Of a stretch of 64,000 nt of DNA, positions 567 to 64,000 are shown one piece after another. The notes below the pieces were generated by a model. That model made no database searches. It saw nothing but the letters and a program-made list of their open reading frames with translations, and was not told where the DNA came from. Position 1 is the stretch's first letter; each line of letters starts with the position of its first letter. Made by a program: the position numbers and the translations under genes. The DNA comes from Leucoraja ocellata (lineage: Eukaryota): assembly GCA_036785375.1 (NCBI GenBank), contig JAWMAR010000311.1, forward strand, positions 1-64,000. The letters are read 5' to 3'.

Positions 567-1045
567 GAGAACCAACCTGATCACCCAATTGCTGGACAGT
601 TTAATTAACTTTCCCATTCCTACACAGACCTTTCTGTCCTCGGTCTCCTCCATTGTCAGAGTGAGGCTAAACGCAAATTGGAGGAACAGCATTTCATATT
701 TCGCTTGGGCAGCTTACACCCCAGTGGTATGAATATTGATTTCTCTCACTTCAGGTAGCCCCGGCATTCCCTCTCTCTCTATCCCTCCCCCACCCAAGTC
801 GCACTAGTTTCTCATTTTCACCCTACAAACAGCTTACAATGGCCCATTTCCCTTATCATTGTTACTTTTTTTCATATCTTTCATTCATTGTTCTTTATCT
901 CTCCAGTCTGAAAAAGTGTCTCGACCCAAAACATCACCCATTCCTTAGCTCCAGAGATGCTGCATGTCCTGCTGAGTTACTCTAGCTTTTTGTGTCCATC
1001 TTCGGTTTAAACCAGCATCCTTTTTAAACCAGTCCCTTCTTACAC
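567..1045 (+). mobile_element. Penelope-like element 3' fragment with degenerate hammerhead-bearing terminal repeat
   Basis: Encodes ...RKLEEQHFIFRLGSLHPSGMNIDFS, followed by gtctgaaaaagtgtctcgacccaaaacatc and the shared ccagagatgctgc...gagttactc tail. Confidence 0.8.
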
Positions 1046-1519
1046 CTTTCTATTTATTGGTTGTTTTGATGGATATGTAAGCTGACGATTTATGCTGCGA
1101 CTCGTTTTCCTCGCAGACTGTCAGTCGTGCTTCACACAAACCCACTCCCACCCCAGACATCTACCCCATCAACATATGGATGGCACAGTGGCGCAAACTG
1201 GTAGAGCTGCTGCCTCACTGGTAATGGGGAATAGATTTACTCACATTAAATGCTTAAAATCATCAATACAGCACAGGAACAGGCCCTTTGGCCCATCATG
1301 TCAGTGCTGAACATGATGCTAAAATAAACTTAATCTGCCTGCATATTATCCATTATCCCTCCATTTCCTGCAAATCTATGTGCCTATCCGAAAGTCTCTT
1401 AAATGCCACGAATATAGCTACCTCCTGTACACAGACTGCACCTGAGGTCAGGATCATGCCTGGGTCTCTGGTGCTGAGAGGCAGCAGCTACTTCAGCTGT
1501 ACCACTGTGCATATTCTCC

Positions 1520-2138
1520 ATGTTTTGCTCAACTTGGTTTGGGAAAAGCTTTACCCAACATCATAAGAAATTGCAAAGAATTGTAAATGTCATCAAGTCC
1601 CTCACACAGACCAGACTCCCCATCTACTCTTCACAGAAAACCAGCCAACATAAGAATGGTCTCGACCCGAAACGTCACCTATTCTTTCTCTCCAGAGATG
1701 CTGCCTGTCCCGCTGAATTACTCCAAGTTTTTGTGTCTATCTTCAACACAATCAAAGACTTGTCCCCCTCTGACCATTCCGTCTTCTCCCTGCACCTGTT
1801 CGGGCAAAAGATACAGAAGCTTGAAAACATGCACCACCAGACTCAGGAACAGATTTCCCCCCCTCTGTTATCAGGCTTCTGAATGCTCCTTCCATAAGAT
1901 GGGGTACTGTCCAAATCGCCCCAACCCTATTATGAACATTGAACTTTGTCTATTGAACTGATGCGCTACAATGCTGATAACTATATTCTGCACTCTGTCT
2001 CTTCCCCTTTGCTCTAACTATTGTACGAGTTTGACTTTATTGTATTTATGTATAGTAATATTTGATCTGATTGGATAGCATGCAAAACAAAGCTTTTCAC
2101 TGTAACTTTGTACACGTGACAATTATAAACCTAAACCT
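1520..2138 (+). mobile_element. Rex1/Babar-like LINE 3' fragment, interrupted by a Penelope terminal-repeat piece (~1650-1745)
   Basis: CSTWFGKSFTQHHKKLQRIVN...SGKRYRSLKTCTTRLRNRF matches the Rex1-type RT C-terminal motif (W(Y/F)G..LQR(V/I)V..SG(R/K)R(Y)RS...RLRNSF). Confidence 0.8.
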
Positions 2139-2154
2139 GATGCAACCAGTCTTT

Positions 2155-2428
2155 AGTTTACTTTAGTCTGCACCAACCAGCGATCCCCGTACACTAACAC
2201 TGTCCTACACACACGAGGGACAATTTACAATTTTACCAAGACAATTACCCGACAAACCTGTACACCTTTGGTGTGTGAATGTAAACTGGAGCACCCAGAG
2301 AAAACCCACGTGGTCACGGGGAGAACATACAAATTCTGTACCAACTGGACCCATAGTCAGGATCAAACCTGAGTCTTGGGCACTGTAAGGCAGCAATTCT
2401 ATGACTGCAACCATACCACTGTGCTGCC
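2155..2428 (-). mobile_element. HE1/V-type tRNA-derived SINE
   Basis: Reverse complement has a tRNA-like head (ggcagcacagtgg...ggtttgatcc), the ctccggtttcctcccacac-like core and a (ctaaa)n tail. Confidence 0.85.
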
Positions 2429-3139
2429 CTCAGGATACTTTCAGCACTATGGGCAAGGAGTTGGGATGAACTAAAAAACATTTATGGGCAGCATGGATGT
2501 ACTGGGCAGATTGGCTTTCTGCTGGGCTGTAATTTTCTGTGATTCTCTGATTCTAACCAAGTTTGATGAGAAGAGCTTACATGTGTGAAATTACCATTTA
2601 GCTTAATATTTATCGCTAAGAAAGGGGAGATAAGGTAATTATAATTGAAGACAAAAGTAATCATTAATTCTTCTTCAACTGAGTAAATCAAAAGAGAAAG
2701 TGTTTGAACCTTTGTTTATTTGAAAATGGTATCTATCAGAAAATATTAATGTCCCTCTTGACTTCAGACTTAAAAACGCACAAGACTAAAATGAGTAAGG
2801 AATTAAAGGCAATTATAGTACAACAAGCAGCTATAATCATGTTTTAAATATGTCTTATTACAACAACCTCAGCTACTATTTTCATGCTATGGTACAACTC
2901 CTTATGTCTTGTACCGATTCAGAAATATTTTTGCTCATTTAAGTTTTCTGCTGATGTAAAATTTACTTTGCACGAAGGGAGCAGTTCTGGATTGCTAAAT
3001 AGAGAAAATATTAGAAATGCCTATCATAAAGATTTAATGAATATTAAAGAAATTCTCAAGAAAGGATAACGTGACAGTTTTTCGGAGTATATTATTGATA
3101 AACAAGACGCTGGAATAATTTTAATCATTCAGTTTTCAG

Positions 3140-3233: not shown

Positions 3234-3336
3234 GTGAGCTCTCTGCAAATTAATGGCGTTAGAAGATTCACCCTTTGTTTCTTGAAAGAAATTATCAGAA
3301 AGCTCCAAAGAAGACCACAATGGATGGGATAATTGC

Positions 3337-6504: not shown

Positions 6505-7965
6505 ACACTAATCACATCTTCCCATCTCCATCCATTTCCACCTTCGACAGAGACTGCTCCGTCCACAACACACTGGTTAACTCATCCATTCCCACCCAAA
6601 CCACCCCCTCCCCAGGTACTTTCCCTGGCAACCGCAGGTGATGTAACACCTGTCCTTATACCTCCTCCCTCGACTCCATCCAGGGGCCTCGACAATCCTT
6701 CCAGATGAGACAGTGGTTCACATGCCCCTCCTCTAACCTCATCTACTGTATCTGGTGTTCTTGATGTGGCCTCCTGTACATAAGAGAGACTGAAGCATGG
6801 ACTCAGTGGGTGTTTTGTTGAACAGTTGACCTGCCAAGACCTGCCTACTGGATCGCCCAGTTGCTCACCACTTTAACTTCCCTTCCCATTCCCATACCAC
6901 CTATCTGTCTTGGGCCTCCTCCATTGCCAGAATGAGGCCATACATAAATTGGAGGAACAGCACCTCGTATATTAATATATATACTTGTAGCTTACAACCC
7001 AGCAGTATGAATGTTGAATTCTCCAATTTTAGGTGACGTCCGCAAACACCTTCTTCCTCCCTTCCCCCATCTTCCCCCTTCCTCCACTAAAAGTTTGTTA
7101 ACCATTTCCGCAGTTTGCAATGATGGGCTCACACCTGTCTCTAGCCAACAATCAGTGTAACATAGAAACATAGAAAATAGGTGCAGGAGTAGGCCATTCG
7201 CCCCTTCGAGCCTGCACCGCCATTCAATATGATCTTGGCTGATCATCCAACTCAGTATCCTGTACCTGCCTTCTCTCCATACCCCCTGATCCCTTTAGCC
7301 ACAAGGGCCACATCTAACTCCCTCTTAAATATAGCCAATGAACTGGCCTCAACTACTTTCTGTGGCAGAGAATTCCAGAGATTCACCACTCTCTGTGTGA
7401 AAAATGTTTTCCTCATCTCGGTCCTAAAAGATTTCCCCTTATCCTTAAACTGTGACCCCTTGTTCTGGACTTCCCCAACATCGGGAACAATCTTCCTACA
7501 TCTAGCCTGTCCAACCCCTTAAGAATTTTGTAAGTTTCTATAAGATGTAAGAATCTTCTAAATTCTAGCGAGTACAAGAGTATCAGGGAACCTTCTTGCC
7601 CGAGGTTACCTGTTTCCGGCCCCAATTTTTCTTGTGTCCAGATTCCCCTCCCCCCTCCCCCCTACAACAGTCAGTCTGAACAAACTGATTTCCCCTTCAT
7701 AAATCACGTTCAGTCTGAAGGGCTCGACCTGAACCGTTGCCAATTCTTTCCCTCCATAGATGCTGCCTCACCCGCTGAGTTTCTCCAGCATTTTGTGTCT
7801 ACCTTCGATTGTACCAGCATCTGCAGTTCTTTCTTAAACAGTCTGAAGAAGGGCCCCGACCTGAAATGTCACCTATCTACTCCAGAGATTTTGCCTGATC
7901 TGTTGAGTTACTCCAACATTTGTGTCTATCTTTAATGAAAAGGAACCAGCATCTGCAGTTCTTTT
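6505..7965 (+). mobile_element. Penelope-like element remnant (GIY-YIG endonuclease region plus tandem terminal repeats) with nested CR1
   Basis: ~6729-6790 reads SSNLIYCIWCS*CGLLYIRET (PLE GIY-YIG NxIYCIxCxxCGLLYIGET); KLEEQHL at ~6945; two tandem hammerhead-type repeats at ~7713 and 7843. Confidence 0.85.
7161..7577 (-). mobile_element. CR1 LINE 3' fragment nested in the Penelope element
   Basis: LIETYKILKGLDRLDVGRLFPMLGKSRTRGHSL on the minus strand; catagaaa tail at 7161. Confidence 0.9.
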
Positions 7966-8709
7966 TCATTACATGAGGACATGTCTGATCTCATCTGGCT
8001 GAAAATGATCTATATCCCTCTCTTCCCTGCACATTTGGAAAGAAACAAGAGGTGATCCACAGTGTCCCATTGTCAAGGTATTCCTGCTCCTATTTCCTTA
8101 TGTTCTAATGTTCTTGTTTTCTTGTCTTGGCACATAATCTTAAAACAAATTTGAGATAACATCATCTCATATATATTTCCAACAATGTCTTCCCTCCATG
8201 GGCTTGATGGGCCGAATGGCCTAATTCTGCCCCTATAACTTATGAACTTATCTTCCATTGGGCTAAAATTGTGAACCAGCAGCTTTTGCTCATAAAGTTA
8301 GGCACAGGAATTTTACTGTGTGGTAATGCCTTGCATTAAGCTATCTGATGGTTCCCAAGCACGGGAATACGAGTTATGAACATTATAATATGACCAATTT
8401 CTATATGGTTCATTTTTTCAATGCCATTACCGAATGAATGATAGCTCGCAAGCCTATCGTTAAATAGAATGAACGCTGAGAGAATTGAATTTATTGAGGC
8501 CTGAATGATTGGAACATTTTGCAGAAAGCTTTCTTTATAATCAAAGTTATGAACACAAAATGACAAGGGAACATATCGCAAAATAAAAAAGATTGCAGAG
8601 TCCCCTCTCATGAGACATTTTGTGTTGCTCTGTCCTGATCTTTCTTTCTTTTATTTTATTACATATTGCTTATTTTCAGAGTATCCTTACCCATGACATA
8701 AACTGGGCT

Positions 8710-9320
8710 AAAGATAGACACAAAGTGCTGGAGTCAATCAGCTGGTCAGGCAACATCTCTGGAGAAAAGGATGGGTGATGTTCCGGGTCAATGGGGAGCT
8801 GGGGGGGGGGGGGGGGGGGGAGAGAGGGAGGGGCAGTGAAGGGGGGGGGGGGGGGGGGGGTGGGGAGGGGCCGTGAAGAGCTGGAGGCGAGAAAAGAGAA
8901 AAAACATGGACTAATCGGGGCCAGCCAAAAATGACCTCAGTCAGGAGTCAGGGCGGTACCTGGTAGGTCCATGTTGGCTTTTGTCGTCGTCCAACATGTT
9001 GACAGAATTGGTCGCCCGGCGAGTCACAGAGTGCATCGTGTCGTCATTTCCGAGGATCGCCACGAAGAGGTTTCTGTCATGATCCCCGGTAGGTCCATTG
9101 TTGGTTGGTGAAGGTGTGATCCCAAGAGAACTGTGGAACTGGCAAAACAAATATGGTGGAGGAAGGGGGCTAGGAGCGAGGGAGCAGGGGATGATGGGGT
9201 ATAAGATGAAGTTACTTAAAATTAAATTCCACGTTCATAATGGTGGGCTGTAAGCTACCAAAGCAAAATACGAGCTGCTGTTCCTTCATTTTGCATGTGG
9301 CTTCACTCTGGCAATGGCAA
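8710..9320 (-). mobile_element. Penelope-like 3' fragment with poly-G tracts and a 110-bp foreign insert
   Basis: Terminal repeat aagatagacacaaagtgctggag at 8710; EGTAARILLW-like C-terminal remnant near 9260-9320. Confidence 0.7.
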
Positions 9321-11025: not shown

Positions 11026-11801
11026 ATACCCCAGTCCCTCTCCTTCTGGCCCACTCCTGGCGCCCGTCATCGCCAGTGGTCCCTCCTCCGCGGCTCTCTG
11101 ATCTTCGGGGCAGGGCTCGACGGCTTCTGAGCTTCTCCTGCAATTGCCTTCTGTTGCCAAGAGATGGCTGAATCATCCTTCGTTGCAACCTCAAGAACAG
11201 CAAACAATGACAGCATCGTTCACATTCCCCAACAGGCTTTGACCGAATCCCACTGCAAGTCAGATAGCGCTTCACCTTCTCATGAGGGAATTGCCCTGTA
11301 GGTATCACGAGTTAGCGATTAGATTCACATCACTGCAACATTACGGGAACTCAGTGAGATCATATATATTTCACTCATTCAAGACGGTAAATGAGATGAA
11401 CTGCACTTGAGTTTAGTAGGGAAACATCAGTCGTATGTTAAGTTGCTGGATAAGCATTCAGAGTGTAGAACACGATAAACTGAATCAATAAACTGGCAGA
11501 TTTAAATTCAAATAATCAAATAAATCACACATAAAATGCAATGGTGGCCATGAAACTTCCGGATTGAGTAGAAGTCTGAAAAAGTGACTCGACCCGAATC
11601 ATTTCCTATCTTTGTTCACCAAAGTTGTTGCCGTGACCCGCTGAGTTTCTCCAGCATTTTGCAGGCAACTGAAGGCAATTGCAGGAGAAGCTCAGAAGCC
11701 ACCGAGCTCGGCCCCGAAGACCAGAGAGCCGAGGAGGAGGGAGCCAGCCGCTGGTGATGACAGACACAAGGAGTGGGCCAATAGGAGCGGGACTGGGGTA
11801 T
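11026..11801. repeat. GC-rich inverted repeat; arms 11026-11158 and 11664-11801
   Basis: cttctgagcttctcctgcaattgccttc and gaaggcaattgcaggagaagctcagaag are exact reverse complements, with mismatched extension to ataccccagtccc / gggactggggtat. Confidence 0.9.
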
Positions 11802-13780: not shown

Positions 13781-13850
13781 TAGCCCTATACATATTTATC
13801 AAGTAATTATCCAATTCTCCATTGAATATAAATCTGCTTTGATTTTTCAG

Positions 13851-19683: not shown

Positions 19684-20530
19684 GTGTCGAAAGGAACTGC
19701 AGATACTGGTTTATACCAAAGATAGACACAAAGAGCTGGAGTAACTCACCAGGTCAGGCAGCATCTCTGGAGTAAAAGGATGGGTGATATTTCAGGTCAG
19801 AACCCTTCTTCCGACTGAAAATAGAGGGGAGGGATCTTGGATTAGGAAAAGGCCAGAACAAATCGGGGCCAGCAACAGAAGGAAGGGTGGAGCCCATATT
19901 GGCCCATTGTTGGCTGGGGAAGAGGTGATAACGAAGAGATACAAGGATGCGAACAGTGGAACTAGTGGGACAACTTGGGTGGCAGAGGGGTGGGTGGGAG
20001 TAAATGCAGAGGTTCCTAGAAATTAGAAAAATCAGTGTTCAGACCGTAGGGTTTTAAGCTGCGCAAGCTAAATATGAGGTGTTGTTGCTCCAATGGATTC
20101 TACTACATTTTAATAGGTGTGCATTAGGCAGTTAGATATCAGTGTAGGAAGGAACTGCAGATGCTGGTTTACACTGAAGATAGACACAAAATACTGGAGT
20201 AACTCAGTCGGTCAGGCAGCATCTCTGGAGAAAAGGAATAGGTGACATTTCGGGTCGAGACCCTTTTTTGGACAGAGAGTCAGGGGAGAGGCAAACTAGA
20301 GCTATGAAAAGGTACAAATAACAAATAAATGAAAGAACGAATCAAAGGCAGCAACGATGATCAAGGAAAGGTGGAGCCCACATTGTTGGCTGTGGACAAG
20401 GTGATGACTGGATACAAACTGAAACTAAGCAGGGCAGCTCGTAGGATTAGAAGGGTGGGGAGGGATGGAGGGAGAGAGATATAGATAATTGAAATGAGAT
20501 AAATCAATACTCATACCACTGGGTTGTAAC
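19684..20530 (-). mobile_element. Two consecutive Penelope-like 3' fragments (19684-20093, 20142-20530)
   Basis: Each starts with ggaactgcagat(a/g)ctggttta...gatagacacaaa, carries a degenerate hammerhead and ends in the ORF C-terminal remnant. Confidence 0.8.
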
Positions 20531-22515: not shown

Positions 22516-22712
22516 TTTAGGAAGGAACTGCAGATGCTGGTTTAAGCCGAAGATAGACACAAAATGCTGGAGTAACTCCGCGAGACAGGCAGCATGTCTG
22601 GAGAGAAGGAAGGGGCAACTTTTCGGGTCTGAAGAAGGGTCTCGATCCGAAAAGCCACCCATTCCTTCTCACCAGAGATGCCGCTGAGTTACTCCAGCAT
22701 TGTGTGTCTATC
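22516..22712. mobile_element. Fold-back (inverted) Penelope terminal-repeat unit with central hammerhead-like core
   Basis: Minus-strand repeat 22516-22627 abuts a plus-strand copy starting ctgaagaagggtctcgatccgaaa at 22629. Confidence 0.85.
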
Positions 22713-36135: not shown

Positions 36136-36169
36136 AAGTGGTTCTGAGGTTGTACGGATTAGCACATTA

Positions 36170-43412: not shown

Positions 43413-43593
43413 ACATTGTTTAAGAACGAACTGCAGATGCTGGAAAATCGAAGGTAGACAAAAATGCTGGAGAAACTCAGCGGGTGAGGCAGCATCTATG
43501 GAGCGAAGAAGGGTTTCGGCCTGAAACGTTTGCCTATTTCCTTCGCTCCATAGATGCTGCCTCACCCGCTGAGTTTCTCCAGCATCTTTGTCT
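43413..43593. mobile_element. Fold-back Penelope terminal-repeat insertion with 12-bp TSD
   Basis: acagctaatatc at 43401-43412 and 43594-43605; ~55-bp near-perfect arms 43454-43508 / 43541-43595. Confidence 0.9.
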
Positions 43594-44065
43594 ACAGCTA
43601 ATATCTCAGGGCTTACTTGATGGTGGCCTTTTAATCTATTTTATAAAATGTGTAAATCTTCTGTGATCCAAATTAATTATGCTTGGGCAGTTGCCACAAC
43701 TGTCCATTGAATTTTCCTCAACTTACCTCCCTCTGGCTAATATTTGATCTGGATGCTTCCTTTTCTATCAGTTCTCTGCAGGCTGGATTTTGTTCCTGCA
43801 CATTTTCAGCGAGTCTGGTGGATTAAGGTGGGATTAACTCTCACGTTAAGAACTACCACTAAGACTTCCTCTCTGTTAACGCTGTTCCCTTTTACTAAAA
43901 GAACACAATTTCATGACTGTAAAGAACAAACACTGTCTCGCTGAGTTCCTCCAGCATTTTGTGTTTGGTTCCTCGAACATAAAAGAGGTATCATGAATCG
44001 AGGAGCACGAAGGAGATGAAGTGGATGAGAAGCAAGGATGGAAGGATCGATTGCGGGAAAAGTTA

Positions 44066-44410: not shown

Positions 44411-45144
44411 CTTATGGAGAAAAGCTATGTTTAATGATATCGTGAACAGTGTCTGCCACTTCAATGTTAACAGTGAGCTCATAATATCAATGGAAAAATA
44501 GACCATCTGGAACAGGAACATCAATGTTGGTGAGAGGACAGGGATTGTGATTCACTGCAAACATCCTATTGTACAGCAATTATTTCCAATTACCTCAAGG
44601 CTATTAAAAGAGTGGAGGAAGAAGAAACTGCAGCAACTTCTCCCAATAAAGTAGGGCAGTTGATCTGAAAATGTTCAGTGGGTGGGGCCGTTGATATTGT
44701 AATAAATTCAGTATTCAAAATCTATCTCGAGTCACCTACGACAGTGCAATCGACAAGCACGATCGACAAGGAAATCGCCCAAATTCCTGCCTCTGGCTTC
44801 AAAATCCACAACTATTCAAATGTGTCTCACACCTTCCTTTCTTGTATCTGGCTTTTTTTCCAGCCATCTGCCCAATCACCACCCCCATGTTGACCTATCT
44901 ACTGGTCATCTAAGTCGACCTATTACCTGCTGTGCCTTGTCCTGTCTCTCCCCTCTTCCAGCTTTCTTCTCTCCCGTTACAATGAGTCTGGAGAAAGGTC
45001 TCAGCCCCTTTTGTCACTTGTCCATGTTGTCCAGGGATGCTGCCTGACCTGCTGAGTTACTCCAGCACTTTGTGTCCCTTTCTCCATTCTTGTTTCATGT
45101 TCATGCTGTAAAGATTGGAGAGGGGAGGGGGCAAAGCTTGCCTT

Positions 45145-46995: not shown

Positions 46996-48508
46996 AAATT
47001 CAAATTGTTTAATTTACGGGCTATCCCCCAGTGTCTTAGTGAATGAACGAGAGAAATATATCAAGACCTGATATCTAGACTGCTGGTTGATGAAACTATA
47101 AGGATTTATACTCTGCACCTAAATCAGAACATCAAATACCAGGGTTGATTGCTTTCCAATTGAGATACTGTGTGGTCATCTGCCGGGAGATGATGAACTC
47201 TGAGTGCAATTGGGATAATGCAAGTATAGATATCCAAACAAGTGTAGATATCTTAATATTAATTAGTAAGAATATCAAGCGTTATGGGAGGAAAGCAGAA
47301 AATGGGGTTGAGAGGGAAAGGTAGATGAGCCATGATTGAATACGGAGTAAACTCAATGGGCTGAATTGCCTACTTCTGCTCCTTCTACTTATGAACTTGT
47401 AGTCTTCCAAGCATGTATAACGAATGTATAGAGCGGCGTTAACACTATAGTTAAAGTTTATTATGGCAGATAAACCAGGATAGAAGAATGTAGGATTATT
47501 TTATATCTCACTGGTCACACAAGGAGGGATTTTTAACCTTACCATAAATCCCCTGAATGCGAACCTTGAGAATTAGATAATTTTAAATTCATCACATCCT
47601 ACCTCAAAAGGTACTGTTACTAGTTCTTAACACAACCAATAGAAGGGAGGATTCTTTGGTACTTTTTTAAAAAACAAAGCTAAGATTATTAGTAAGAACG
47701 ATAAATTTCCGTTAATCTGCATGCATGGAATTTAATTTAAGATATCAATAATAGCATTTACCATTGAATGGAACTTAGCAGTTATTTATTTAGCCAGAGG
47801 GTGGTGAATCTGTGGAATACATTGCCACAGATGGCAAGACATTGGGCTTTTTAACAGCTGAGATTGATAGGTTCTTAATTAGTACGGGTGTCAATGGTTA
47901 CGGGGAGAAGGCAGGAGCATGGGGTTGAGAGGGAAACATGGATTAGACATGATTGAATGGCAGAGTAAACTCAATGTGCCAAATGGCCTAATTCTGCTTT
48001 TATAGTTTATGGCAAATGCTACTATCAACATAGTAACTAAGCTTAAGAGTTGCATTGGAAACAAGACCCTGGTACGTTTAAAGGGAGCATGGGTTGGAGA
48101 TCCAGATGTGTTTCATTGATTATTTTGATTCAATTCAATCATTGATTATCTGGGCATTCAAGGCCCTGACAGGTTTAAAATGAGTGTAAGAATCATAGTC
48201 CCAATGAGTTAAACAAACCAGCACCCGATGAGCTTGTGCTGAGGTATTGGGATTTCCAATTCGTCAGATAGCAGATTGTCAGATATGTACACAAAATGTT
48301 GGAGTAACTCAGTGGGTCAGGCAGCATCTCTGTATAAATGGAGTAGGTGATGGTTTGGGTAGAGACTCTTCTTCAGACAGATTGTCGGAGTTTTATTGCA
48401 ATGAGATTGTGCCAGATTTGAAGGACTCTATGATCAGGCTATTTGGCAAAATCCATGCCAACTGGAATCTCCTCCCATCATTCTGTTCTAACTGTCCAAT
48501 TATATTTT

Positions 48509-51875: not shown

Positions 51876-52655
51876 AGGCAGGGTGTTGCAAACAGGCTCT
51901 GTGGTGAATATTTAATGAGGCAACATTCCAGAAATTAATTCATATCATGGCCCAGAAATGTTGATGAAGGCTCACGTGTAATTGACTCCTGAAAAATAGG
52001 ATGGAGCCTCTCACTGAAGGGATTGAATGCGCCGTTATGGAAATTCATGGTTGATGTATTTTCCTGTACTCTCCTTAATGTGAACAGATTGTGTTCAAGG
52101 GAGTTCCCAGACCACCCCTTAATTTCCCTTGGTAGTACCTCCATAGAACTCTTGCCAACTGACTGGTGTTCTTTGAAAGACCACTTTCTAAGGAACTGAT
52201 CTTGCTTTAATCTATCTTTGATTACAGTTGGGAAAGACTTTTCTCAATCTCTGGCTGAGTGTCACAAGTGTAAGATGGCTCTCAGCCTTTATAAGTGCCA
52301 TCACTGGCACAAACTACCAGTACTTATTTAGATTACGGAGCTAGTACCTTCATGGGTGATGTTGGTAGTTTTGTTTTGTGGTATCGAGTGCACTTAAAGG
52401 CTTAACATAACATTGAGGAAAACCATGAGTACTCCATGATGACCTGCCAGATATGTATTCCTTTTTACGGGACCAGTTGATTGATTAATTAAAAGGCACA
52501 GCTTGGAAGCAGGCCCTTCAGCCCAACAGGCCGAAGGCATTCGCATTAGTTCTATGTTCTCCCGCTTTCACATCCACTCCCTACACATTAGTGACAATTT
52601 ATAGAGGCCAATTAACTTACAAACCTAGATGTCTTCAGAATCTGATGATGATATT

Positions 52656-52885
52656 GAGGCACAAAGTGCTTGATTAACATAGCGGGTCAGACAGCACCTC
52701 TGGAGAACATGGGCAGGGCATGTTTCAGAAAGGGACCCTTCTTAAGGCAGGGTCCCGATTTCTGAAGAAGGGTCCCGACCCAAAACGTCACCTGTTTACG
52801 TTCTCCAGAGAAGCTGCCTGATCCACTGAGTTACTCCAGCACTTTGCATCTTTTTTTTGTAAGCTGACATCTGCAGTTCCTTGTG
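52656..52885. mobile_element. Fold-back Penelope terminal-repeat unit
   Basis: Minus copy, then ctgaagaagggtcccgacccaaaacgtc at 52762 and the plus-strand tail. Confidence 0.8.
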
Positions 52886-53278
52886 GGTACTCCCTGATGA
52901 TATTAAGGGACTGGTTGAGCTCCCACCATTACAGCAAGGCAAAGTAAACACAATTCATTAAATAAATCTTGCTTTTAAAAAGTCAATGATGGTGACCAAG
53001 CAGTTATGGATTGTTGTTCAAACCTTTTTGATTCCCAAGGGTCCTTTAAGTGATGGAAAGCTTCCGAACTCAATTTTTATGTTATTCCAAATACATAGAA
53101 ATGATTACTGACACAAAGTGCTGGAGTAACTCAGCAGGTCTGGCAGCATCTCTGGAGAACATGGATAGGTGACGTTTTGGGTCGGGACACTTTGTCAGAT
53201 CAGTTGATTAAATACATTTGGAATAGGTTCATATGTCATAGGAGCAGAATTAGGCTATTCAGCCCATGCATTCTCATG

Positions 53279-55026: not shown

Positions 55027-58000
55027 ACAGATACAGCGCGGAAACGTGCCTTTTGGCCCACCGAGTCCACGCTGACCAGAAATCACCACATACGCTAGCA
55101 CTATCCTACACATTAGGGCCAATTTAAAATTTTTACTGAAGCCAATTAACCTACAAACCTGTACGTCTTTGGAGTGTGGGAGTAAACTGGAACACCTGGA
55201 GAAAACCCACGCAGTCACAGGGAGAACATACAAAACTCCATACGGACAGCACCCATAGTCAGGATCAAACCAGGGTCTCTGGGGCTGCAAGGCATCAACT
55301 CTACCACTGTGCCAGTGTGCTGCCTCTATTTATAACTATCTGCACAATTGACTCTATTTTGATTAACCTTTGCATTAGCTTTTATTTTTCACACAAACAT
55401 TTTTAATATGGATACAGAGATTTGGTTGGTGGAATACTCACTGGGTATTTTTAAAGGGAAAATTGGCATGTTTTGGATTAGGAAGGGTGTCAAAGGTTAG
55501 AGGGAACAGGCAGGAGAATGGGGTTGAGAGGGAAAGATAGATTGGCCATTATTGAATGGCAGAGTAGACTCGATGGGCCTAAAGGTATAATTCTGCTCCT
55601 ATGACTTATGAACTCATTGAATAGGTAGTGGACCTGGATAGGACAGATAGAGGTACCTAAAGCTAGAGGGTGTAGGCTTCAAATAAGGAGTAAGAAATTT
55701 CGAGGGAATCAAAGCAAGAACCTTTTCACAAATCTGGAACCCAGTGCTTGAGTGGATAGTGGAGACATTTAAGAAGATTCAAACATAGCTTCTTGTTTCC
55801 TGCTATTATCAGACTCTTGAATGGACCCAAGGACACATTCCCGACTCCCCAGTCTACCTCGGTGCAGCATTGCACTTTTTAAAATCTGCACTTTCCCTGT
55901 AGTTGTAACAATATTTATGTTTGTAGGTTAATTGGCCACCATAAAATTGACACAGAAAGTATAGGGAGTGGATGTTAAAGTGGATAACGTTGAACAAGTG
56001 TGAATGGGTATTTGATGGTCGGCATGGACTAACTGGGCCGAAGGGCCTGTTCCAATGCTGTATCTCTAAACTAAACTAATATATTTTGCAGTCAGTTTCC
56101 ATTCTCTTTGCACTACGTGTTGTCCTTGTGTATGTTTTGATTGCAATTGTGTATCTGTGTATTTTTACTTGGATGGCATGCAAAACAAAGTTTTTCCAGT
56201 GTATCTCAGTTCATAAAACAATGATTCAAACAATAAACCAAAACTAAGTATCTGCATGAGCACTTGAATTGCCGATGCTGAGCAGGCTACGGACTAAGGT
56301 TCTGGGGAATGGGATCAGTATAAATAGGCACCTGATGGTTAGTGTGGACGTGTGATTGGAGAGGCAAGCTTCTGTCCTTCAGACTTTAGAGATTTAACCT
56401 TTAGAGATACAGCACAGAAACAAACCCTTTGGCCCACCGAGTCCATGCCGACCAGCGGTCGTCCCGTACACCAACACTATCCTCCTACACACTAGGGACA
56501 ATTTACAATTTTACCGAAGCCAATTAACCTACAAACCTGTACGTCATTGGAGTGTGGGAGGAAACCAGAGCACCCGGAGAAATCCCACCCGGTCGGTCGC
56601 TGTGAGAACGTGCAAACTCCGTACAGATAGCACTGTAAACTGTCCTGTATGACTCCATGGCTATTATCTGTATGCCAGCATGTGAAAAGGGAAAGGAATG
56701 GTTAAGTATTGCATTGGGACCTTGGGGGAGGAACTTTATCACAGTCGTGTCAATTTTCTGGGCCTACTGACAGGCAAACATTTTCCAATCTGTACTGAGG
56801 GTTTGCTAGATGCCAGACTCGGAGCAGGTGTTAGGTGTGTAGCTGCAAATCCAAAACCTGATGCCAGTTCTGGGACTCAATCATAATGAAACTGATGTCA
56901 TAGACCTTCCAAAGATAAACACAAAATGCTGGAGTAATTATATGGGCAGGCAGCATTTTTTAGAGAAAATGGATAGGTAACATCTCGGGTTGGAAACCCT
57001 TCCATAGATTTTCCATTTTGTTCAAGATAGACACTAAAAGCTGTCTTTTTAAAAGCTGGAGTAACTTAGCGGGCCAGGCAGCATCTCTGGAGAGAAGGAA
57101 TGGGTGACTTTTCGGGTCTAGACCCTTCTTTATTTTAGTTTAGAGATACAGCACGGAAACAGGGCCTTCAGTCCACTGAGTCCGCGCTGACCAATGATCC
57201 CTACACACTAACAATATCTTACACTATCCAAAATACTGCGGACAATTTACAATTTTGCCTAGCCAATTAGCCTACATACCTGTACGTCTTTGGACTGTGG
57301 GAGGAAACCGGAGCACCTGGTGAAGGGCCACACAGGTCACAGGGAGAACGTGCAAACTCTGTATAGACAGCACCTGTAGTCAGGATTGAACCCGGATCAC
57401 TGGTGTTGTAAGGCAGCAGCTCTACTGCTGCACCACCATGTTATCAGGTTCAATGCTAAATTGTCCAGTGCTGTGTAAAGGAGGTAATTGAGGCCCTGAT
57501 TTTATCAGGCAATTATCCAGAGATGCTTCTGTATTGGGCCGAAAACCCATCGTTTTTTTTATGTTAATGGTTTCTTAGTTGATTGCCGTTGTGTTGCTAT
57601 TTGTGTGCCTACCATCAAATCTGAGTAATCGTCTATAGGTAGGATTCTTACTGCATTTGCGCGCATCCAGCGACAGAAGATAATGTAGTGACATTGTCCT
57701 TGGACATGTTTAGCCAGGGGTAGTGGGAGGGGTGAGGGTGGCATTTGGTATGTTATTGCCTTGTTAAGGACATTGATCTTTGGTGACAGTGGGAAGAGAA
57801 GACATCAAATCATGGAGAGTATTGCATAGAAAAAGGCCACAGGCTGAATGGCTACTTTTATGGAACAATAAAATTGGTTTAATTCCCTGACTCTGTCTTA
57901 CATCCCTTACATTTTTTTAATTTAAATTATCTATCCAATTATCTTTTAAAAGGTCTCAAAGTGCTGGGGTAACTCAGCAGGCTGGGCAGCACCTCTGGAG

Positions 58001-58272
58001 AACGTGGATAGATGATTTTGGGTAGAGACCCTTCGGCAGCTCGTTCCATATGGCCACCACACTCTGAGTGAAAAGGTTGCCCCTCGGGTTCTTGTTAAAT
58101 CTTAGTGTAGAAACGGGGACCTGCAGATGCGGGTTAACAGACAAAAGGATGCAAAGTGCTGGAGTCACTTAGCAGATCAGACAGCAGCTCTGGGGAACAT
58201 GGATAAATGAATTGACGCAATGGTGACATAATTCTTCCTCCAAGATCCCAGTCGAACATTTAACCATCTCTT

Positions 58273-58307
58273 TCGCTGAAGAAAGGTCTCGACCCGAAAC
58301 GTCACCT
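58273..58307 (+). ncRNA. Minimal hammerhead ribozyme motif
   Basis: CUGAAGA-AAGGUC(UC)GACCC-GAAA-CG-UC at 58276-58303. Confidence 0.5.
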
Positions 58308-59596
58308 ATCCATGTTCTCAGTATTTCTGCAGATAATACTTTGTTGATGCCTTTCTCAATATCGTCTATGCTTGGAATTTCAATGTTCTGGTTTGGATTT
58401 TGCTTATCCATTAGATCAGTATCGGCGCCATTTTGATGCATTGAAAGGGTTCTCGGGTGAACAGTTGGAATTGTAATGGGATGTATGCTCTTTTGGCAAA
58501 GTCAACACTTATTGCCCCATCCTTGAATGCTCTTGAGATAATCATTTGTTTACTAATCCATCTCAGGGAGCAATAACAAGTCTGCTATGGGTTTGAGATT
58601 CAATAGTGGCCAGAATGGATCAGGAAATTAATGTTTATTTGGAAAGAAGGAGAATAATGAATCTATATCAGATAGTTTTTATAAACAGCAATATGTTGGA
58701 TACTGCAGATGCTCTTTTACAAAAACAAGTGCTGTGCTGGAGTAACTCAGCGAGTCAGGCAGCATCTCTTGAAAAACATGCATAGGCGTGATTTGGGTGG
58801 AGACCCTTCAGACTTCATTTGAGAAGCTTGGCAATGCATTTCATTGTCACATGTATCTTGATATAGTGAAATTATTTTACATACAATTTAATACAATCTT
58901 CATTGCATAGTGAAAATCATACCAAGTACAAGACCATATAATTAGTAGATTACACTGAGGCGCATTTCTGGCACCACTTTGTATCCTTCAATTGGCATGA
59001 TTAACGAGTTAGGTAGATTTTTGGTCAATAGAAGAATCAGAAGGTTAGGCAGAAAACTGTTTGAGGGAAAGATCAGATCAGCCTTGATCTTTCTGAATGG
59101 CGATGTAGGTCATGAGGTATGTTGGCCTATTTTTAATTTAGTTTAGAGATACAGTGTGGAAACCTGGCCCACCAAGTCCTCACTGACCAACGATCACCCG
59201 CACCCTATCCTACACACTCGGGGCAACTTACAGAAGCCAATTAATTTACAGACCTGCAAATCTTTGGAACGTGAGAGGAAACCAGAGCACCTGGAGAAAC
59301 CCCACGCGGTCATGGGGAGAGCGTACAAACGCCGTGCAGACAGCACCCATTGTCAGGATTAAACCTGGATCATTGGCGCTGTAAGATAGCAACATTACCA
59401 CTGCACCATTGTGTTGCCCTTGCCTTTATTTCTTGTGCACTCATGCTGTTATGAATGTCTCTGACCAACTGTGATATAGAAAGTGCTAGAAATGGGATTG
59501 GTCATTTTTAGCTGGTAAATTCACTATGACAATTACATTCTGTGCTGCGTACGTATAAGATGATAAATGCAAGGAATCTCCATTTGGATGGGCAGC

Positions 59597-59877
59597 CATA
59601 ACCTCAGAATAAAATGACAAACCTTTAGAAAGGAGATGATGAGGAATTTCTTTTGTCAGAGGTGTATCTGTGTAATTCATTGCCACAGCTGTGGAGGCCA
59701 AGTCGATGCATATTTTTAAGGCGGAGATTGACAGATTCTTGATTAGTTAGGCTATCAGGGGTTATGGGAGGAAGTCGGGAGAATGGGGTTAAAAGGGAAA
59801 GATAGATCAGCAACGATTGAATTGCGGAGAAGACTTGATGGGCTGAATGGCCTAATTCTGCTCTTAGAACTTATGAA
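59597..59877 (+). mobile_element. CR1 LINE 3' fragment
   Basis: cctcagaataaaa...cttatgaac tail. Confidence 0.85.
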
Positions 59878-62399
59878 CCATTAACTCTACAAAAGCTGAG
59901 TTTATTAATTTTCTTTCTGGAAATGAGGAAAATATTCCAAATGCCATCTCAAGTAGCACCTACAGCAGTCAAAGTATTATCTCCATAGAAAAAAACGATA
60001 GCATCAGACTGGGAAGATGTGCCCAAGTACATACTGAATTAAAACAAGAGAGAGCAATGTTTGAGTGTAAAGTAACTCTCATTTGCTATAATGGCCCTCT
60101 AAAAGATAAATTATGACTTAATGGATCACTTGCAGTGAAGGATATTTAAAATGTAGATGGAGTAAAAAGGCAACAGATAAATAATATTTGGGATAATTAA
60201 AATTGACTTCAAGCCTAGTGATAAATAAACATAAACATGTGTTCCCAAAACTAAATTACATTCTAATACTTATTGCTACCATTTGTCAGCGTTATAATGT
60301 ACCCTGAAGCATTAATACAATTAAAACATTGCTAATATATTTGAAAAGATCTGAGATTTTCTGGAGATTACCCAAATGCGGAGTAACTCAGTGGGCTAGG
60401 CGGCATCTGTGGAGGGAAATGGACAGATAATGTTTTGAGTTGGGATTTTTCATCAGACTGATATACCAATGGGGAGGTCTAATGTGTATATATAAAATAA
60501 AATGCATATGTATTTCCTTCTGCAGAGCAAGATATTCAAGTGATTTAAAGTCAATTAATAACATTTGGGGGAGTGAAGATAGGTGTTTAGCAAATGGTTG
60601 CTACAAACATAAATGGTCCAGGAATAATGAAGGTGATGGTGGCTCAGTTAAATATTTTTATCAACGTTGAATAACGTTTAACATTTAAACTTTAGAGATA
60701 CAGTGTGGAAACAGACCCTTCAGCCTACCGAATCTGCACCGGCCAGCGATCGCCCCGTACACTAGTACTTTTCTACACACTAGGGACAATTTACAATCTA
60801 CATGAGCCACTTAACATACAAACCCGCATGTCGTTGGAGTGAGAGAGGAAACCGGAGCACTCGGAACAAGTCCAGGTGGTCATGGGAAGAAAGTACAAAC
60901 TCCGTACAGACAGCACCCGTGGTCAGGATCTAACTGGGGTCTCTGGCGCTGTGAGCAGTACCGTTGTGGCACTGGGCCGCCCTAAGACCCTTCTTCAGAC
61001 AATTATATGATGGTCCACAACTGCTTAGCCTCAAAATGCTCATTTAACCCTCCTTTGAGCGCCTGGGCTGCCAAATCGCACGTCCCTGTGATGCCCAAAT
61101 CTGAATGAAATTGCTCCAACCTTTGTTCAGGCAAGTGCCTCCAAGGTGTGCCAGCTGCATTTTATCTGCAAGGGACAATGTAGGGAAATGAAAGATGCTT
61201 CCAGCAGCCAGAATGTGAACTGAGCAGCAATGGTCATTTTAGAAATTGCAAGGCTTCATAAAGCATTTTGGTCAACTTACAGAAAAGCGATTCCACAAGC
61301 TCTGCTGCCATATGTTTCAGAGTCGCAAGCTTGCGGCTAATTAAGTCCTAGCTGGCTGACAAAGAGGTTTTCAATTACAGCAGCTTTCTACTGAAGTGTA
61401 ATGTGTTTCTTGCTGCTGGATTGGCATCTCTGATCTGGTACAGCGCTGCAAGCCTCTGAAATATTTACGCTCCTTCAGCCCGGTTTCTTTGATCATCCCA
61501 AACTTCATTTGCCCCTCTCACTCTCCCCCGCACATTGCCCACAGCCTTACTATTAACGTCTCTTTTACATGCCAATGAGTTGCTCCAGTTTCAGTAGTGG
61601 GAGCTCTACCCAAAGCGGCTCAGTGGCGCAGCGGTGAAGTTGCTGCCTCACAGCGCCAGAGACTCGGGTTCGATCTTGACTATGGGTGCTATATGAATGG
61701 AGTTTGTACCTTCTCCTGATGACTGCGTGGATTTTCTCCAGGTGCTCCGGTTTGCTCCCAAATTCCAAAGATGTACAGGTTTGCAGGTTAATTGGCTTTG
61801 GTAAAACTAGTAACTTGTCCCTACTGTGTAGGATAGTGCTAGTGCATGGGTGTTTGCTAATCAGCGTGGACTCGGTGGGCTGAAGGGACTGATTCCGCGC
61901 TGTATCTCTAACGTAAAGTCTAAAGCTGTTCCCTTGACAGTAAAGTCAGAGGAGAGAGTTCTACTGCAGAACCAAAGCTATCACTTGGGTCAGCAGCAAC
62001 ATAGCAGAGTGACAGCAAATTTTAGCATTTAATGTCTATCTTTGGCACTCGGAATAACTTGCCAAGCCATTACAGGGGGCAACTGACAATCAGATACTTA
62101 AATAAATCTAAATAGCTGGTTTCAGAAAGCTCACGGTTGGGTATAGGTCAGACCAAGTGGCGGAGGCTGATTTTCTTCCCTATTTGACATTCTGCAAGTT
62201 TCATGATCTTCTCTGATACCAGCTATTTAATGCCAGATTTATTTAATTAGCTGAATTTAAAGTGCTCAACTGCTTTCCTGGGATTTGATCTAGGATTAGT
62301 AGTTTAATCACCGTGTTAATAAACCCTTTATTTGAATGCATGCAAGCATGCCCATGCACATGTGAAAACGCGCACACACATTCAAATAAATTCTTCAAT

Positions 62400-62920
62400 T
62401 CCTTTGCTTCACATTTTGTGTCTTTTCATCTCTGGCCTTTGTCAATTATCTGCCTATCAACCCCCTCCATCCATCCCCCCCCCCCCCCCCCCACCCCACC
62501 TGTATCAACCTATTACATCGGTAGGAAGGAACTACAGATGTTGGTTTATACTGAAGATGGACACAAAGTGCTGGAGCAGCTGTATGTCAGGCAGCATCTC
62601 TGTAGAAATGGAATAGGTGACTTTTGTGGTCGCAATCCTTCTCCAGACTAGATCCTTCTGTCTGAAGAGGGTTCCAACCCGAAATGTCACCTATTCCTTA
62701 TCTACAGAGATGCTGCTTGACCTGCTGTTACTCCAGCACATTGTGTCTATCTCCGACTTATTACATGCCAGGCGCTGTCTTGACCCTCCTATCCTCCAGC
62801 TTTCTTTCCCCTCCCCCCACAATCACTTTGAAAAAGCGTCCTGACCCAAAACGTCATCTGTCCAAGTTCTCCAGAGAAGCTGCCTGAGCTAATGAGTTAC
62901 TCAGGCATTTTGTGTCTTAT
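62400..62920. mobile_element. Penelope UTR containing a fold-back unit; hammerhead core at 62662-62688
   Basis: CUGAAGA-GGGUU(CC)AACCC-GAAA-UG-UC with canonical spacing. Confidence 0.75.
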
Positions 62921-63149
62921 TTTGGCCTAAAACAGAGACAACAAGAGGTTATCTAGCCTGCAGTGGAGCAGCCTTTACTTCCGTGTCACAGTGCGAAACA
63001 CACGTGCAGACTGGCCCATTACTTTAGAAAACACGTCAAGGCAATGGAGAAGGTGGAGAAGAAGATATGAAATTTTAGCAGTGATGTGAATTTAGAAAAC
63101 TGGAATTTTTTAGTATAATGTAATATTTTAGTATATCCAGGATATCTGG

Positions 63150-63320
63150 AGGTGTTCAAATAACATTTGCACTGGGGGAATTCAAATTGTAAAATAAATC
63201 TGGAACGAGAGAGCGAGCATTTGTAATGGTGACCATGAAACCACCAGACTGCTGTAAAAAGCCATCTGTTTCACAAATGACCTTCATTGTTGGATATCTC
63301 CCAATCTGGCCAGTCCCAAG
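63150..63320 (+). mobile_element. Old interspersed repeat (probable SINE core); related copies near 11490-11570, 52905-53065 and 62150-62290 (-)
   Basis: Shared aataaatctgg...aatggtgaccatgaaac motif. Confidence 0.55.
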
Positions 63321-63711
63321 CTCCATAGGTAGTTGTTTCAAACCAGTCAGTTCAGGCCGATTAGAGATGATATTTACACCAAGTGCTGGAGTAACACAGC
63401 GGGCGAGGCAGCATCTCTGTAGAACATGGATGGGTGACGTTTCAGGTCGGGACCCTTCTTCACAGGTCTGAGTCTGAAATGCCACCTATCCTTGTTCTGC
63501 AGAGATTCTGCTTGATCCACTGAGTGTCATTTGGTGTCTTTTTTTTGTAAACCAGAATATGCAGTTCCACACATCTAGAGATGATCTTGCTGGGACCTCC
63601 ACATCCAGTGAACAGATTAATGGAAAACACCTTTGTATTTCCCACTCAAACATTGGTGATGCTTCAGTGATGTACATTAGGATGTTTGTAAATGTGTTAC
63701 ATAAATATAAC

Positions 63712-64000
63712 TGTGTAGGAAGGAACTGCAGTTGATGGTTTGCCTGAGGATAGACACAAATTGCTGGAGTAACTCAGCGGGACAGGCAGCATCTCTGGAG
63801 AGAAGGAATGGATGAGGTTTTGGGTCAAAACCCTGCTTCAGACTAGTTAGGGGTAAGGGAAACGAGAGATGTAGATAATGATGTAGAGAGATAAAGAACA
63901 ATGAATGAAAGATATGCAAAGAAGTAACAATGACGAAGGTAACAAGACATTGTTAGCTGTTTATTGGGTGAAAAAGAGGTGGTGTGACTTGGGTGGGGGG
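63712..64000 (-). mobile_element. Penelope-like 3' end running off the window
   Basis: tgtgtaggaaggaactgcag...gatagacacaaa terminal repeat; UTR closely matches 780-905 in reverse. Confidence 0.85.

What the first reader, a model, noticed from the sequence alone, without database searches (positions are those of the whole stretch)
907..63841. Dense dispersal of minimal hammerhead-ribozyme motifs on Penelope-derived terminal repeats
Seen: a ~130-bp repeat beginning CTGAAGA-A-GGGTC(TC)GACCC-GAAA-CG-TC recurs about 20-25 times by eye. Cores with intact CTGAAGA and GAAA are at 7843, 22629, 36917, 38940, 40724, 42183, 58276 and 62662 (+) and 28563-28590 (-); the rest are decayed. Helix II varies while staying paired (GGGU-UUCG-GCCC, GGGUC/GACCC, GGGUU/AACCC). 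Several copies sit just 3' of Penelope ORF ends. Established: Penelope-like elements carry minimal hammerheads with a palindromic helix III thought to cleave as dimers. Inference: many copies here lack any ORF and may be a short, ribozyme-bearing non-autonomous family; sense copies inside the putative intron could affect pre-mRNA. Caveat: helix I is only 2-4 bp.
Basis: partly seen in the sequence, partly recalled or inferred. Interest (0 to 1): 0.7.

Follow-up and report, generated by a model that had tools for sequence, protein, structure and literature searches.

The report
Penelope stubs starting at ribozyme edge
These short repeats are the clipped ends of a known kind of jumping gene that carries a tiny self-cutting RNA motif; only one of about 45 copies here still has the whole motif, and the one oddity is that many copies begin at the motif's front edge, which likely marks where the copied RNA starts.

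Summary
The repeat is real and more common than reported: 45 hits (22 +, 23 -). It is the last 95-131 bp of a Neptune-type Penelope-like retroelement (PLE); a full partial-tandem copy with an intact 1239-aa RT/GIY-YIG ORF exists elsewhere in the genome. The motif fits the minimal hammerhead described in 2014. Of the nine cores called intact, only 42183 is complete. Helix II shows no compensatory change. The window is not unusually dense; the genome holds 120,549 exact cores.

ORF-less copies are not random truncations: 41 of 91 young copies start within 5 nt upstream of the core (0.7 expected), and most have target-site duplications. Nor are they one separate lineage or cut products: they interleave with UTR-bearing copies on a tree, and only 2 events in 100 copies start at the cut site. 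Likely mechanism: the reverse transcriptase starts at two fixed internal sites and runs off the 5' end of uncleaved element RNA (inferred). No host exon was found, so the intron effect is unsupported. This scan noted the same pattern before, in this genome and at least 13 genomes in all.

The parts
41961..42313 (+). Young 5'-truncated Neptune-type PLE end: last 36 codons of the endonuclease, 114-nt pyrimidine-rich 3' segment, hammerhead, long (tail) end
42181..42212 (+). Only complete minimal hammerhead in the window: 2-bp helix I, CUGAAGA, unpaired A, 4-bp helix II with UUCG loop, GAAA, palindromic ACGU; predicted cut between 42210 and 42211
570..1019 (+). Older PLE end: endonuclease C-terminus 570-752, intron-like segment, decayed core at 907
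19694..20093 (-). Older PLE end: endonuclease remnant 20093-20019, 205-nt segment, decayed core
6507..7030 (+). Decayed PLE linker/endonuclease fragment, about 680 bp upstream of the 7705 copy; link to it not shown
7705..7961 (+). Direct tandem of two end-pieces; the first has a deleted core, the second a 3-bp helix II and TG in helix III
8700..9316 (-). End-piece lacking the core (8790-8700) with an endonuclease remnant at 9316-9221; link uncertain
22525..22717 (.). Head-to-head inverted pair joined inside/at the hammerhead
26335..26491 (.). Head-to-head pair joined in helix II
40691..40845 (.). Head-to-head pair; the + arm starts at the core's 5' edge (core 40724, TG in helix III)
43428..43606 (.). 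Head-to-head pair of the younger type
52650..52879 (.). Head-to-head pair
62529..62765 (.). Head-to-head pair (core 62662)
63360..63567 (.). Head-to-head pair
20152..20284 (-). Copy that continues upstream into the PLE 3' segment (alignment about 257 nt), no ORF hit
28251..28364 (+). Copy that continues upstream into the PLE 3' segment
36903..37023 (+). Copy with about 67 nt of upstream PLE segment; helix II broken (core 36917)
63723..63849 (-). Copy with about 157 nt of upstream PLE segment
38928..39051 (+). Stub starting at the core's 5' edge (core 38940, TG in helix III)
28504..28604 (-). Stub (core 28590, TG in helix III, internal deletion)
58275..58319 (+). 3'-clipped stub (core 58276, G10.1 lost)
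1639..1762 (+). Decayed stub
11560..11689 (+). Decayed stub
27136..27255 (-). Decayed stub
48265..48387 (-). Decayed stub
53107..53208 (-). Decayed stub
56908..57132 (-). Direct tandem of two decayed end-pieces
57932..60469 (-). Four further decayed end-pieces (58051-57932, 58211-58119, 58813-58702, 60469-60354)
44976..45082 (+). Decayed copy of an older subfamily; a similar one lies at 62815-62937(+). Remaining fragments: 16163-16069(-), 26973-27069(+), 37815-37856(+), 43933-43981(+), 46690-46626(-)

Best explanation
The repeats are the terminal 95-131 bp of Neptune-type Penelope-like retroelements, carrying a known minimal hammerhead motif that is broken in all but one copy here, and the ORF-less copies are likely short cDNAs made when the element's own reverse transcriptase starts at an internal site and runs off the 5' end of an uncleaved element RNA. 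SHOWN: (1) the repeat is the end of a 4.0-kb RT/GIY-YIG unit and, in a tandem, lies in front of the next ORF; (2) 3' ends fall at two sites 36 nt apart; (3) 5' ends pile up at -1 to -5 from the core; (4) stubs carry target-site duplications and occur in each successive subfamily; (5) very few copies start at the cut site. FROM PAPERS: a lizard PLE enzyme starts reverse transcription at two internal sites that define the tail, uses mostly uncleaved RNA, and is predicted to be a dimer that nicks and extends both strands (PMC11167929). INFERRED: the monomeric mRNA starts at or near TCAG/GUCUG, which resembles a Pol II initiator (consensus recalled). Priming in its 5' region gives a stub, priming in the downstream repeat of a read-through RNA gives the longer ORF-bearing copies, and two cDNAs joined by microhomology give the head-to-head pairs. 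The hammerhead would cut only as a protein-assisted dimer in tandem transcripts; dispersed copies would be inert.
For: Full partial tandem L096:4297-9370 with cores 4000 bp apart, a 1239-aa ORF and a 14-bp TSD. Pfam RVT_1 E=5.5e-7 (just above cut-off) and GIY-YIG E=0.003 (below cut-off) on the L013 pieces. Young family: 14,654 exact 71-mers, control 0. 45 of 95 copies (41 of 91 after dropping four duplicates of L265) start within 5 nt upstream, mode at the G at -1; 0.7 expected from the hazard further upstream, binomial p about 1e-60. 31 of these 41 have a shared flank string of >=9 bp. 3' ends at +85-102 (59 of 91) and +128-136 (27 of 91). In inverted pairs one arm is short and the other long in 20 of 21 listed arm pairs, three pairs being listed twice. 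Anchoring 3' of the cut site, without requiring a core: 61 of 100 copies start between -5 and +11, 2 between +12 and +28, and 4 at the cut (+29), which are 2 independent events. Mixed-age set: 63 solo, 66 UTR-extended, 45 inverted, 6 tandem of 180; upstream of solos the match fades by -6 and the composition is background. Tree: 32 label changes, at least 12 forced by supported branches. The double-hammerhead fold is -6.7 kcal/mol against -25.0 for the best dimer fold, and P(helix II) is about 0 in the young monomer.
Against: No RNA 5' end was observed: four runs laid on the young element show no place where many molecules begin or end. These are fragmented poly(A) or single-cell libraries from coded organisms not shown to be this species, so the test is weak. 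The modal start is the G after the initiator-like A, not the A. The same boundary is also a 3' splice-site-like CAG after a pyrimidine tract (37 of 42 EN-linked copies have YCAG; 31 of 42 have a branch-like word), and in D. virilis the start site lies 46 nt upstream of such an intron (PMC2377424, passages), not at the ribozyme. Labels on the tree are more clustered than shuffles (32 against 43), and the oldest subfamily is stub-rich, which leaves room for stubs that spread by themselves; only 96 columns were used and many forks are open. The young sample comes from one contig and includes both arms of several pairs. The TSD call has no shuffled control.
Confidence: 0.55

Rival explanations
1. 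Same element, but the enzyme stalls at an obstacle at the 3' splice site of a retained intron (bound splicing factors or a splicing intermediate) on a longer RNA, and does not run off its end.
For: Segments of about 85-365 nt and different sequence between the ORF stop and the core are pyrimidine-rich (0.85) and end in YCAG just before the core; older subfamilies have a GT donor-like site at the stop codon. In D. virilis the intron ends at the 5' side of helix I (PMC4209133, results section read).
Against: No spliced genomic copy: the pattern for the predicted older-family junction gave 2 hits, a near-duplicate pair, both unspliced. No splice joint among the 15 best-supported of 121 joints. 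A lariat would stop the enzyme about 10-20 nt further upstream (inference).
Confidence: 0.2
2. One reading: stubs are, at least in part, a self-propagating non-autonomous (SINE-like) family, transcribed from a promoter inside the 130 bp and copied in trans.
For: Fixed 5' and 3' ends and TSDs. About 1.6 million fragments by extrapolation. Stub-rich oldest subfamily and label clustering. PLE repeats can act in trans (PMC3846280, passages), and tandem retrozymes derive from pLTRs (bioRxiv 10.64898/2026.07.22.740005, parts 1-3 of 5).
Against: Stubs are interleaved with UTR-bearing copies along the whole subfamily ladder, one pair being identical. Both young downstream variants occur in stubs (21:8) and in long copies (20:16). 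No stub-specific upstream sequence.
Confidence: 0.17
3. Retrozyme-like: hammerhead cleavage (and circularisation) defines the unit that is copied.
For: 2 independent insertions among 100 copies start exactly at the predicted cut, against 2 copies in the 17 positions before it: a weak hint that a few per cent of templates were cleaved. One of them is a palindromic junction that microhomology alone could explain.
Against: Most stubs begin about 30 nt upstream of the cut and keep the core. Copies are monomers or head-to-head pairs, not head-to-tail arrays. No read pile-up at the cut, and no strand-specific loss upstream of it in the poly(A) run (depth ratios 0.62 and 0.65 on the two strands).
Confidence: 0.04
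4. Ordinary random 5' truncation, or later recombination and deletion, of autonomous copies.
For: About half of the young copies do end at scattered positions from 10 to more than 1000 nt upstream. Papers describe PLE insertions as mostly 5'-truncated (PMC8557442) and ascribe solo pLTRs without TSDs to recombination (PMC3846280).
Against: 41 of 91 within 6 positions against 0.7 expected, and TSDs directly around the stubs.
Confidence: 0.03

Closest known systems
[quoted passage not shown]
   Same: CUGANGA and GAAA boxes, unpaired base before G10.1-C11.1, palindromic 15.2-16.2, no helix III loop, short helix I; mostly dispersed single motifs, some close opposite-strand pairs; reported there for Xena, Poseidon and Neptune elements of fishes.
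   Different: Helix II is 4 bp with a tetraloop (7-8 bp in the schistosome families) and helix I is 2 bp (like D. virilis). 120,549 exact cores here against about 9,000 in X. tropicalis, counted by a different method. The parts read do not mention cartilaginous fish or a preferred 5' boundary.
EN+ PLEs of the Neptune (or Nematis) clade (Craig et al. 2021, PMC8557442; passages)
   Same: RT then C-terminal GIY-YIG with a C-x4-C-x2-C linker, partial tandem forming a pLTR, inverted 5'-truncated arm, 30-40-bp tail on one end.
   Different: Long Pro-rich N-terminal region (ORF 1239 aa). Neptune and Nematis were not separated by a tree here. A large class of copies reduced to the ribozyme-to-tail module.
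PAc, Poseidon of Anolis carolinensis (Frangieh et al. 2024, PMC11167929; parts 1-2 of 4 read)
   Same: Two fixed 3' ends a tail-length apart, downstream of the hammerhead; uncleaved RNA as the main template; no reads at the cut site.
   Different: Other clade (no linker Zn-finger). In PAc the ORF starts in stem II; here the first ATG lies 165 nt downstream of the core in the young family.
Non-LTR retrozymes (Li et al. 2026, bioRxiv 10.64898/2026.07.22.740005; parts 1-3 of 5 read, supplements closed)
   Same: Short, non-coding, pLTR-derived, hammerhead-bearing; reported from one chondrichthyan genome.
   Different: Defined as head-to-tail arrays with a complete hammerhead in at least two consecutive units. 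The window has two direct tandems of two, neither with two complete motifs.
D. virilis Penelope 5' region (Schostak et al. 2008, PMC2377424; passages)
   Same: Internal TATA-less promoter in the pLTR; intron whose 3' end meets helix I (per PMC4209133).
   Different: There the start site is 46 nt upstream of a 75-nt intron. Here neither splicing nor the start site is shown.

Membership tests
EN+ Penelope-like element | Single ORF with RT and C-terminal GIY-YIG endonuclease | tested here: met
   1239-aa ORF in L096; Pfam RVT_1 above cut-off and GIY-YIG below cut-off at E=0.003 on L013 pieces; endonuclease remnants upstream of window copies
EN+ Penelope-like element | Partial tandem forming pseudo-LTRs; inverted 5'-truncated arm | tested here: met
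   L096, L093, L094; 130 of 344 hits in head-to-head pairs, 14 of them in the window
EN+ Penelope-like element | Optional 30-40-bp tail on one end | tested here: met
   3' ends at about +95 and +131; short/long pairing in inverted insertions
Neptune/Nematis clade | CX2-5CxxC linker before GIY-YIG (absent in Penelope/Poseidon) | tested here: met
   C-x4-C-x2-C in the ORF; definition from PMC8557442
Neptune/Nematis clade | Placement with Neptune and not Nematis in an RT tree | not tested
   No reference sequences on hand
Minimal type I hammerhead | Core boxes, extra base before helix II, G10.1-C11.1, palindromic 15.2-16.2, U-H | tested here: met
   Met by 42183 and by the family (120,549 exact cores, control 2); not met by the other 8 cores named
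Minimal type I hammerhead | Compensatory covariation in the helices | tested here: not met
   0 two-sided changes in 23 window copies; no excess over shuffles in 162 copies. Subfamily changes are pairing-neutral wobbles; within one genome the test has little power
Minimal type I hammerhead | Self-cleavage as dimer or with protein | not testable with these tools
   Indirect only: active fold disfavoured; no end pile-up in RNA reads; 2 insertions start at the cut
Non-LTR retrozyme | Head-to-tail array with complete hammerheads in two or more consecutive units | tested here: not met
   Window tandems 7705-7961 and 56908-57132 have broken cores
Non-LTR retrozyme | Circular RNA with junction at the cut site | tested here: inconclusive
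   No such joint among the 15 shown of 121; poly(A)-type libraries select against circles
Separate non-autonomous (SINE-like) family | Fixed ends and TSDs | tested here: met
Separate non-autonomous (SINE-like) family | Own lineage with private diagnostic changes | tested here: inconclusive
   Not one lineage (32 label changes, at least 12 forced), but more clustered than shuffles on a poorly resolved tree
Intron-retaining PLE (D. virilis type) | Spliceosomal intron ending at helix I | tested here: inconclusive
   Acceptor-like features in 37 of 42; no spliced DNA copy and no listed RNA joint

The most novel reading that the evidence does not exclude
Vertebrate PLE mRNA starts at the front edge of its hammerhead, and internal priming on that 5' end is a routine by-product that has strewn over a million ribozyme-headed, TSD-flanked stubs through this genome. 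If the promoter lies inside the 130 bp, the stubs are themselves a Pol II-driven, SINE-like partner of PLEs. The two-armed short/long insertions would then be a fossil record of a dimeric, two-template integration step.
Probability: 0.3. Interest if true: 0.6.

Novelty: new member of a known kind. Interest (0 to 1): 0.33.

Why it matters
The ribozyme class and its carrier are known, and the window's copies are mostly dead. The value is mechanistic. How PLEs integrate and what their hammerhead is for are open questions, and this genome offers tens of thousands of near-identical young insertions whose ends can be read directly. They support, from genome data, the two internal priming sites shown in vitro for one lizard element, argue that uncleaved RNA is the usual template, and give a precise prediction for the RNA start. 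The searches made listed no paper whose read parts describe the sharp 5' boundary; subscription papers and supplements were not seen.

Tried and rejected
Rfam scan: no hammerhead family hit; the microRNA hits are hairpins below gathering score. First label 'Poseidon' dropped after finding the linker Zn-finger. L013 first taken as full-length; it is 5'-truncated, and only retrieved matches to another repeat next to it. Spliced genomic copies: 2 pattern hits, both unspliced; the pattern covered the older donor types only. An idea that splicing would fuse an upstream ATG in frame through the repeat holds only for the old majority sequence and not for the young family (read), so it was dropped. 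Cap-derived extra G: junctions end in G but no excess of GG or GAG was evident, so not claimed. Host gene: 300 ORF pieces scanned against Pfam (297 of 359 low-repeat ORFs plus 3 others), no hit reached a curated cut-off; reads laid on 36000-46000 only (10 of 64 kb) gave near-zero depth in unique stretches and no exon; short exons can be missed. Run search: no RNA holder listed on record. A genome-wide count of UTR-linked against stub copies was not obtained, so the stub fraction rests on samples from contig C1 and on 65 hand-picked stretches. Searches were script failures, and the dimer energies were invalid (redone). That the host is a skate or ray is inferred from repeat types recalled from memory and from earlier notes; no call shows it.
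Full report
Observation. The nine coordinates are right. A profile built from eight window copies finds 47 hits; 45 score at least 20 bits, 22 on + and 23 on -. 35 span the core, 9 keep CUGANGA..GAAA, 6 keep a paired helix II (Markov control mean 0.17, maximum 2 in 100) and only 42183 has the complete motif (control 0). Six of the other eight have lost the CpG of the palindromic helix III, two of them with a broken helix II as well; 22629 lacks the U-H and 58276 lacks G10.1. Rfam reports no hammerhead, which is expected for this minimal form (inference). The window has 7.0 hits per 10 kb; 65 hand-picked 10-kb stretches average 4.6 +/- 3.2 and 16 of them have 7 or more, which extrapolates to about 1.6 million fragments in 3.44 Gb. 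An exact core pattern matches 120,549 times, control 2.

What it is. Close relatives of 42150-42313 continue upstream into an RT and GIY-YIG ORF. At least 39 other places match 258 bp of the RT at 100% as rounded, so the family is young. L096:4297-9370 is a complete partial tandem: a 1074-bp truncated copy, then a 4000-bp unit with a 1239-aa ORF, cores at 5241 and 9241, first ATG at 5406, and a 14-bp duplication at the flanks. The repeat is therefore both the 3' end of the unit and, in tandem, the leader of the next ORF. A C-x4-C-x2-C linker precedes the GIY-YIG motif, which by PMC8557442 (passages) marks Neptune or Nematis and not Penelope/Poseidon. In the window 3 of 35 core-reaching copies follow an endonuclease remnant (907, 19814, 42182), at least four more continue 67-257 nt into the upstream segment, and 14 hits form seven head-to-head pairs.

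Structure. Helix II is 4 bp with a tetraloop, helix I is 2 bp, and helix III is the self-complementary ACGU. No pair shows a two-sided change in 23 window copies (these 23 were chosen for an ungapped core), and pairing does not exceed shuffles in 162 of 180 copies. The common subfamily changes (U-A to U-G in both helices, C to U at position 17) keep the motif possible but are not covariation. For the young copy the double-hammerhead fold is -6.7 kcal/mol against -25.0 for the best dimer fold, and helix II has probability near 0 in the 135-nt monomer. This agrees with the low activity reported for minimal hammerheads (PMC4209133, parts 1-2 read) and the protein dependence of the Anolis motif (PMC11167929, parts 1-2 read).

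Are the ORF-less copies random truncations? No. I examined 95 copies of the young 71-mer (14,654 in the genome) from the first 90 or so listed loci on contig C1. 45 start within 5 nt upstream of the core, 27 of them at the G at -1; the rest are spread from 10 to over 1000 nt. After dropping four duplicates, 41 of 91 fall in that interval against 0.7 expected (p about 1e-60), and 31 of the 41 have a flank duplication of 9-18 bp. 3' ends fall at about +95 and +131, and inverted insertions pair a short arm with a long arm in 20 of 21 listed cases, three pairs being counted twice. This matches the 'tail on one end' of PMC8557442 and the two internal priming sites of PMC11167929. Because that sample required an intact core, I re-anchored 3' of the cut site on the first 100 listed matches (52,104 in the genome): 61 start between -5 and +11, 2 between +12 and +28, 4 at the cut, and 33 continue upstream. 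The 4 are two events: one palindromic pair and one duplicated locus. Older copies behave alike: 63 solo, 66 extended, 45 inverted, 6 tandem of 180, with background sequence beyond -6 in solos.

Are they a separate family? Not one lineage. On a tree of 129 copies (95 nt each) solos and UTR-bearing copies alternate through successive subfamilies: 32 label changes, at least 12 forced by supported branches. The labels are, however, more clustered than shuffles (43), and the oldest subfamily is solo-rich; the tree is poorly resolved. Both young downstream variants occur in both classes.

Mechanism. Best reading (0.55): the enzyme primes at the fixed internal sites and runs off an RNA that begins at or just before the ribozyme. 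The boundary resembles a Pol II initiator (consensus recalled, not from a call). Rival (0.2): a stall at a 3' splice site. The segment between the stop codon and the core is pyrimidine-rich and ends in YCAG in 37 of 42 ORF-linked copies, as the D. virilis intron ends at helix I (PMC4209133), and there the start site is further upstream (PMC2377424, passages). No spliced DNA copy was found and no splice joint was among the 15 listed of 121. Self-propagating stubs (0.17) remain possible. Cleavage-defined units (0.04) and random truncation (0.03) fit poorly.

RNA and host gene. No run holding the stretch is on record as RNA. Three raw-read RNA runs and one contig set from coded organisms cover the repeat on both strands, with no pile-up of ends, and the poly(A) run shows no strand-specific loss upstream of the cut. 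These libraries do not keep 5' ends well and are not shown to be this species. No exon was found by Pfam or in reads over 36000-46000, so an effect on a pre-mRNA has no support here.

Comparison and verdict. This is a member of the EN+ PLEs, Neptune-type by the linker, with a minimal hammerhead of the 2014 class. It is not a retrozyme by the tandem criterion of bioRxiv 10.64898/2026.07.22.740005 (parts 1-3 read). PMC3846280 (passages) ascribes solo pLTRs without TSDs to recombination; here stubs have TSDs. The searches listed no paper whose read parts describe the sharp 5' boundary; supplements and subscription papers were not seen. I had reached the stub reading. The scan's notes then showed it already recorded: 39 findings in at least 13 genomes hold the search words and 69 notes in this genome do. 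Those notes are unchecked and are not counted as evidence. Verdict: real, known kind, mostly dead copies, with a testable clue to PLE integration; interest 0.33.

Noticed in passing
L023:391-668 and 1366-1718; L031:8730-9038; L275-L304 (G000:C1, 18.05 and 19.8-20.6 Mb); absent from the window: Head-to-tail arrays of a 66-bp unit made from the repeat's 3' part (from GAAA to the short 3' end, no CUGAAGA, so no ribozyme). 22,456 exact junctions genome-wide, control 0. On contig C1 the first 100 listed are all on + and none lies in the first 18 Mb. Arrays of 2-9 units sit inside end-pieces of different subfamilies, which suggests local, strand-polarised spread into existing copies. Unexplained.
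   Followed up: partly
L265-L269 (G000:C1, 19.55-19.67 Mb): Five near-identical loci with the same stub and flanks, 26-31 kb apart: a larger tandem or segmental duplication.
   Followed up: no
window 1-440, 3333-3779, 4862-5584, 7150-7440, and family D5/D19 (for example 27572-27737): Decayed LINE pieces in both orientations; CR1-like by recalled sequence features, not tested.
   Followed up: no
window, families D1-D3, D8, D10-D12, D14-D16, D18, D20 (for example 12045-12348, 55077-55329): A second very abundant short repeat of about 300 bp on both strands; V-SINE/HE1-like from memory, not tested.
   Followed up: no
L096:4700-5230: Reads over the endonuclease end are strand-skewed (about 2:1 in the poly(A) run, several-fold the other way in the single-cell runs), while the ribozyme part is about 1:1 in the poly(A) run. 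If the libraries follow the usual conventions, longer copies are transcribed mostly antisense. Library direction was not established.
   Followed up: no
L096:5246-5294: Reads and contigs that go back 32-34 nt across helix II to just past the cut site: probably short tandem duplications in the other organism's DNA, not circles; not checked.
   Followed up: no
L029:3445 (-): An ORF end joined almost directly to the core, with the intron-like segment missing, but not at the predicted splice junction; probably a microhomology deletion.
   Followed up: partly
window 24139-24604 and 30177-30557: Low-complexity tracts (pyrimidine-rich; GT-rich) that give long open frames and spurious microRNA hits.
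   Followed up: no
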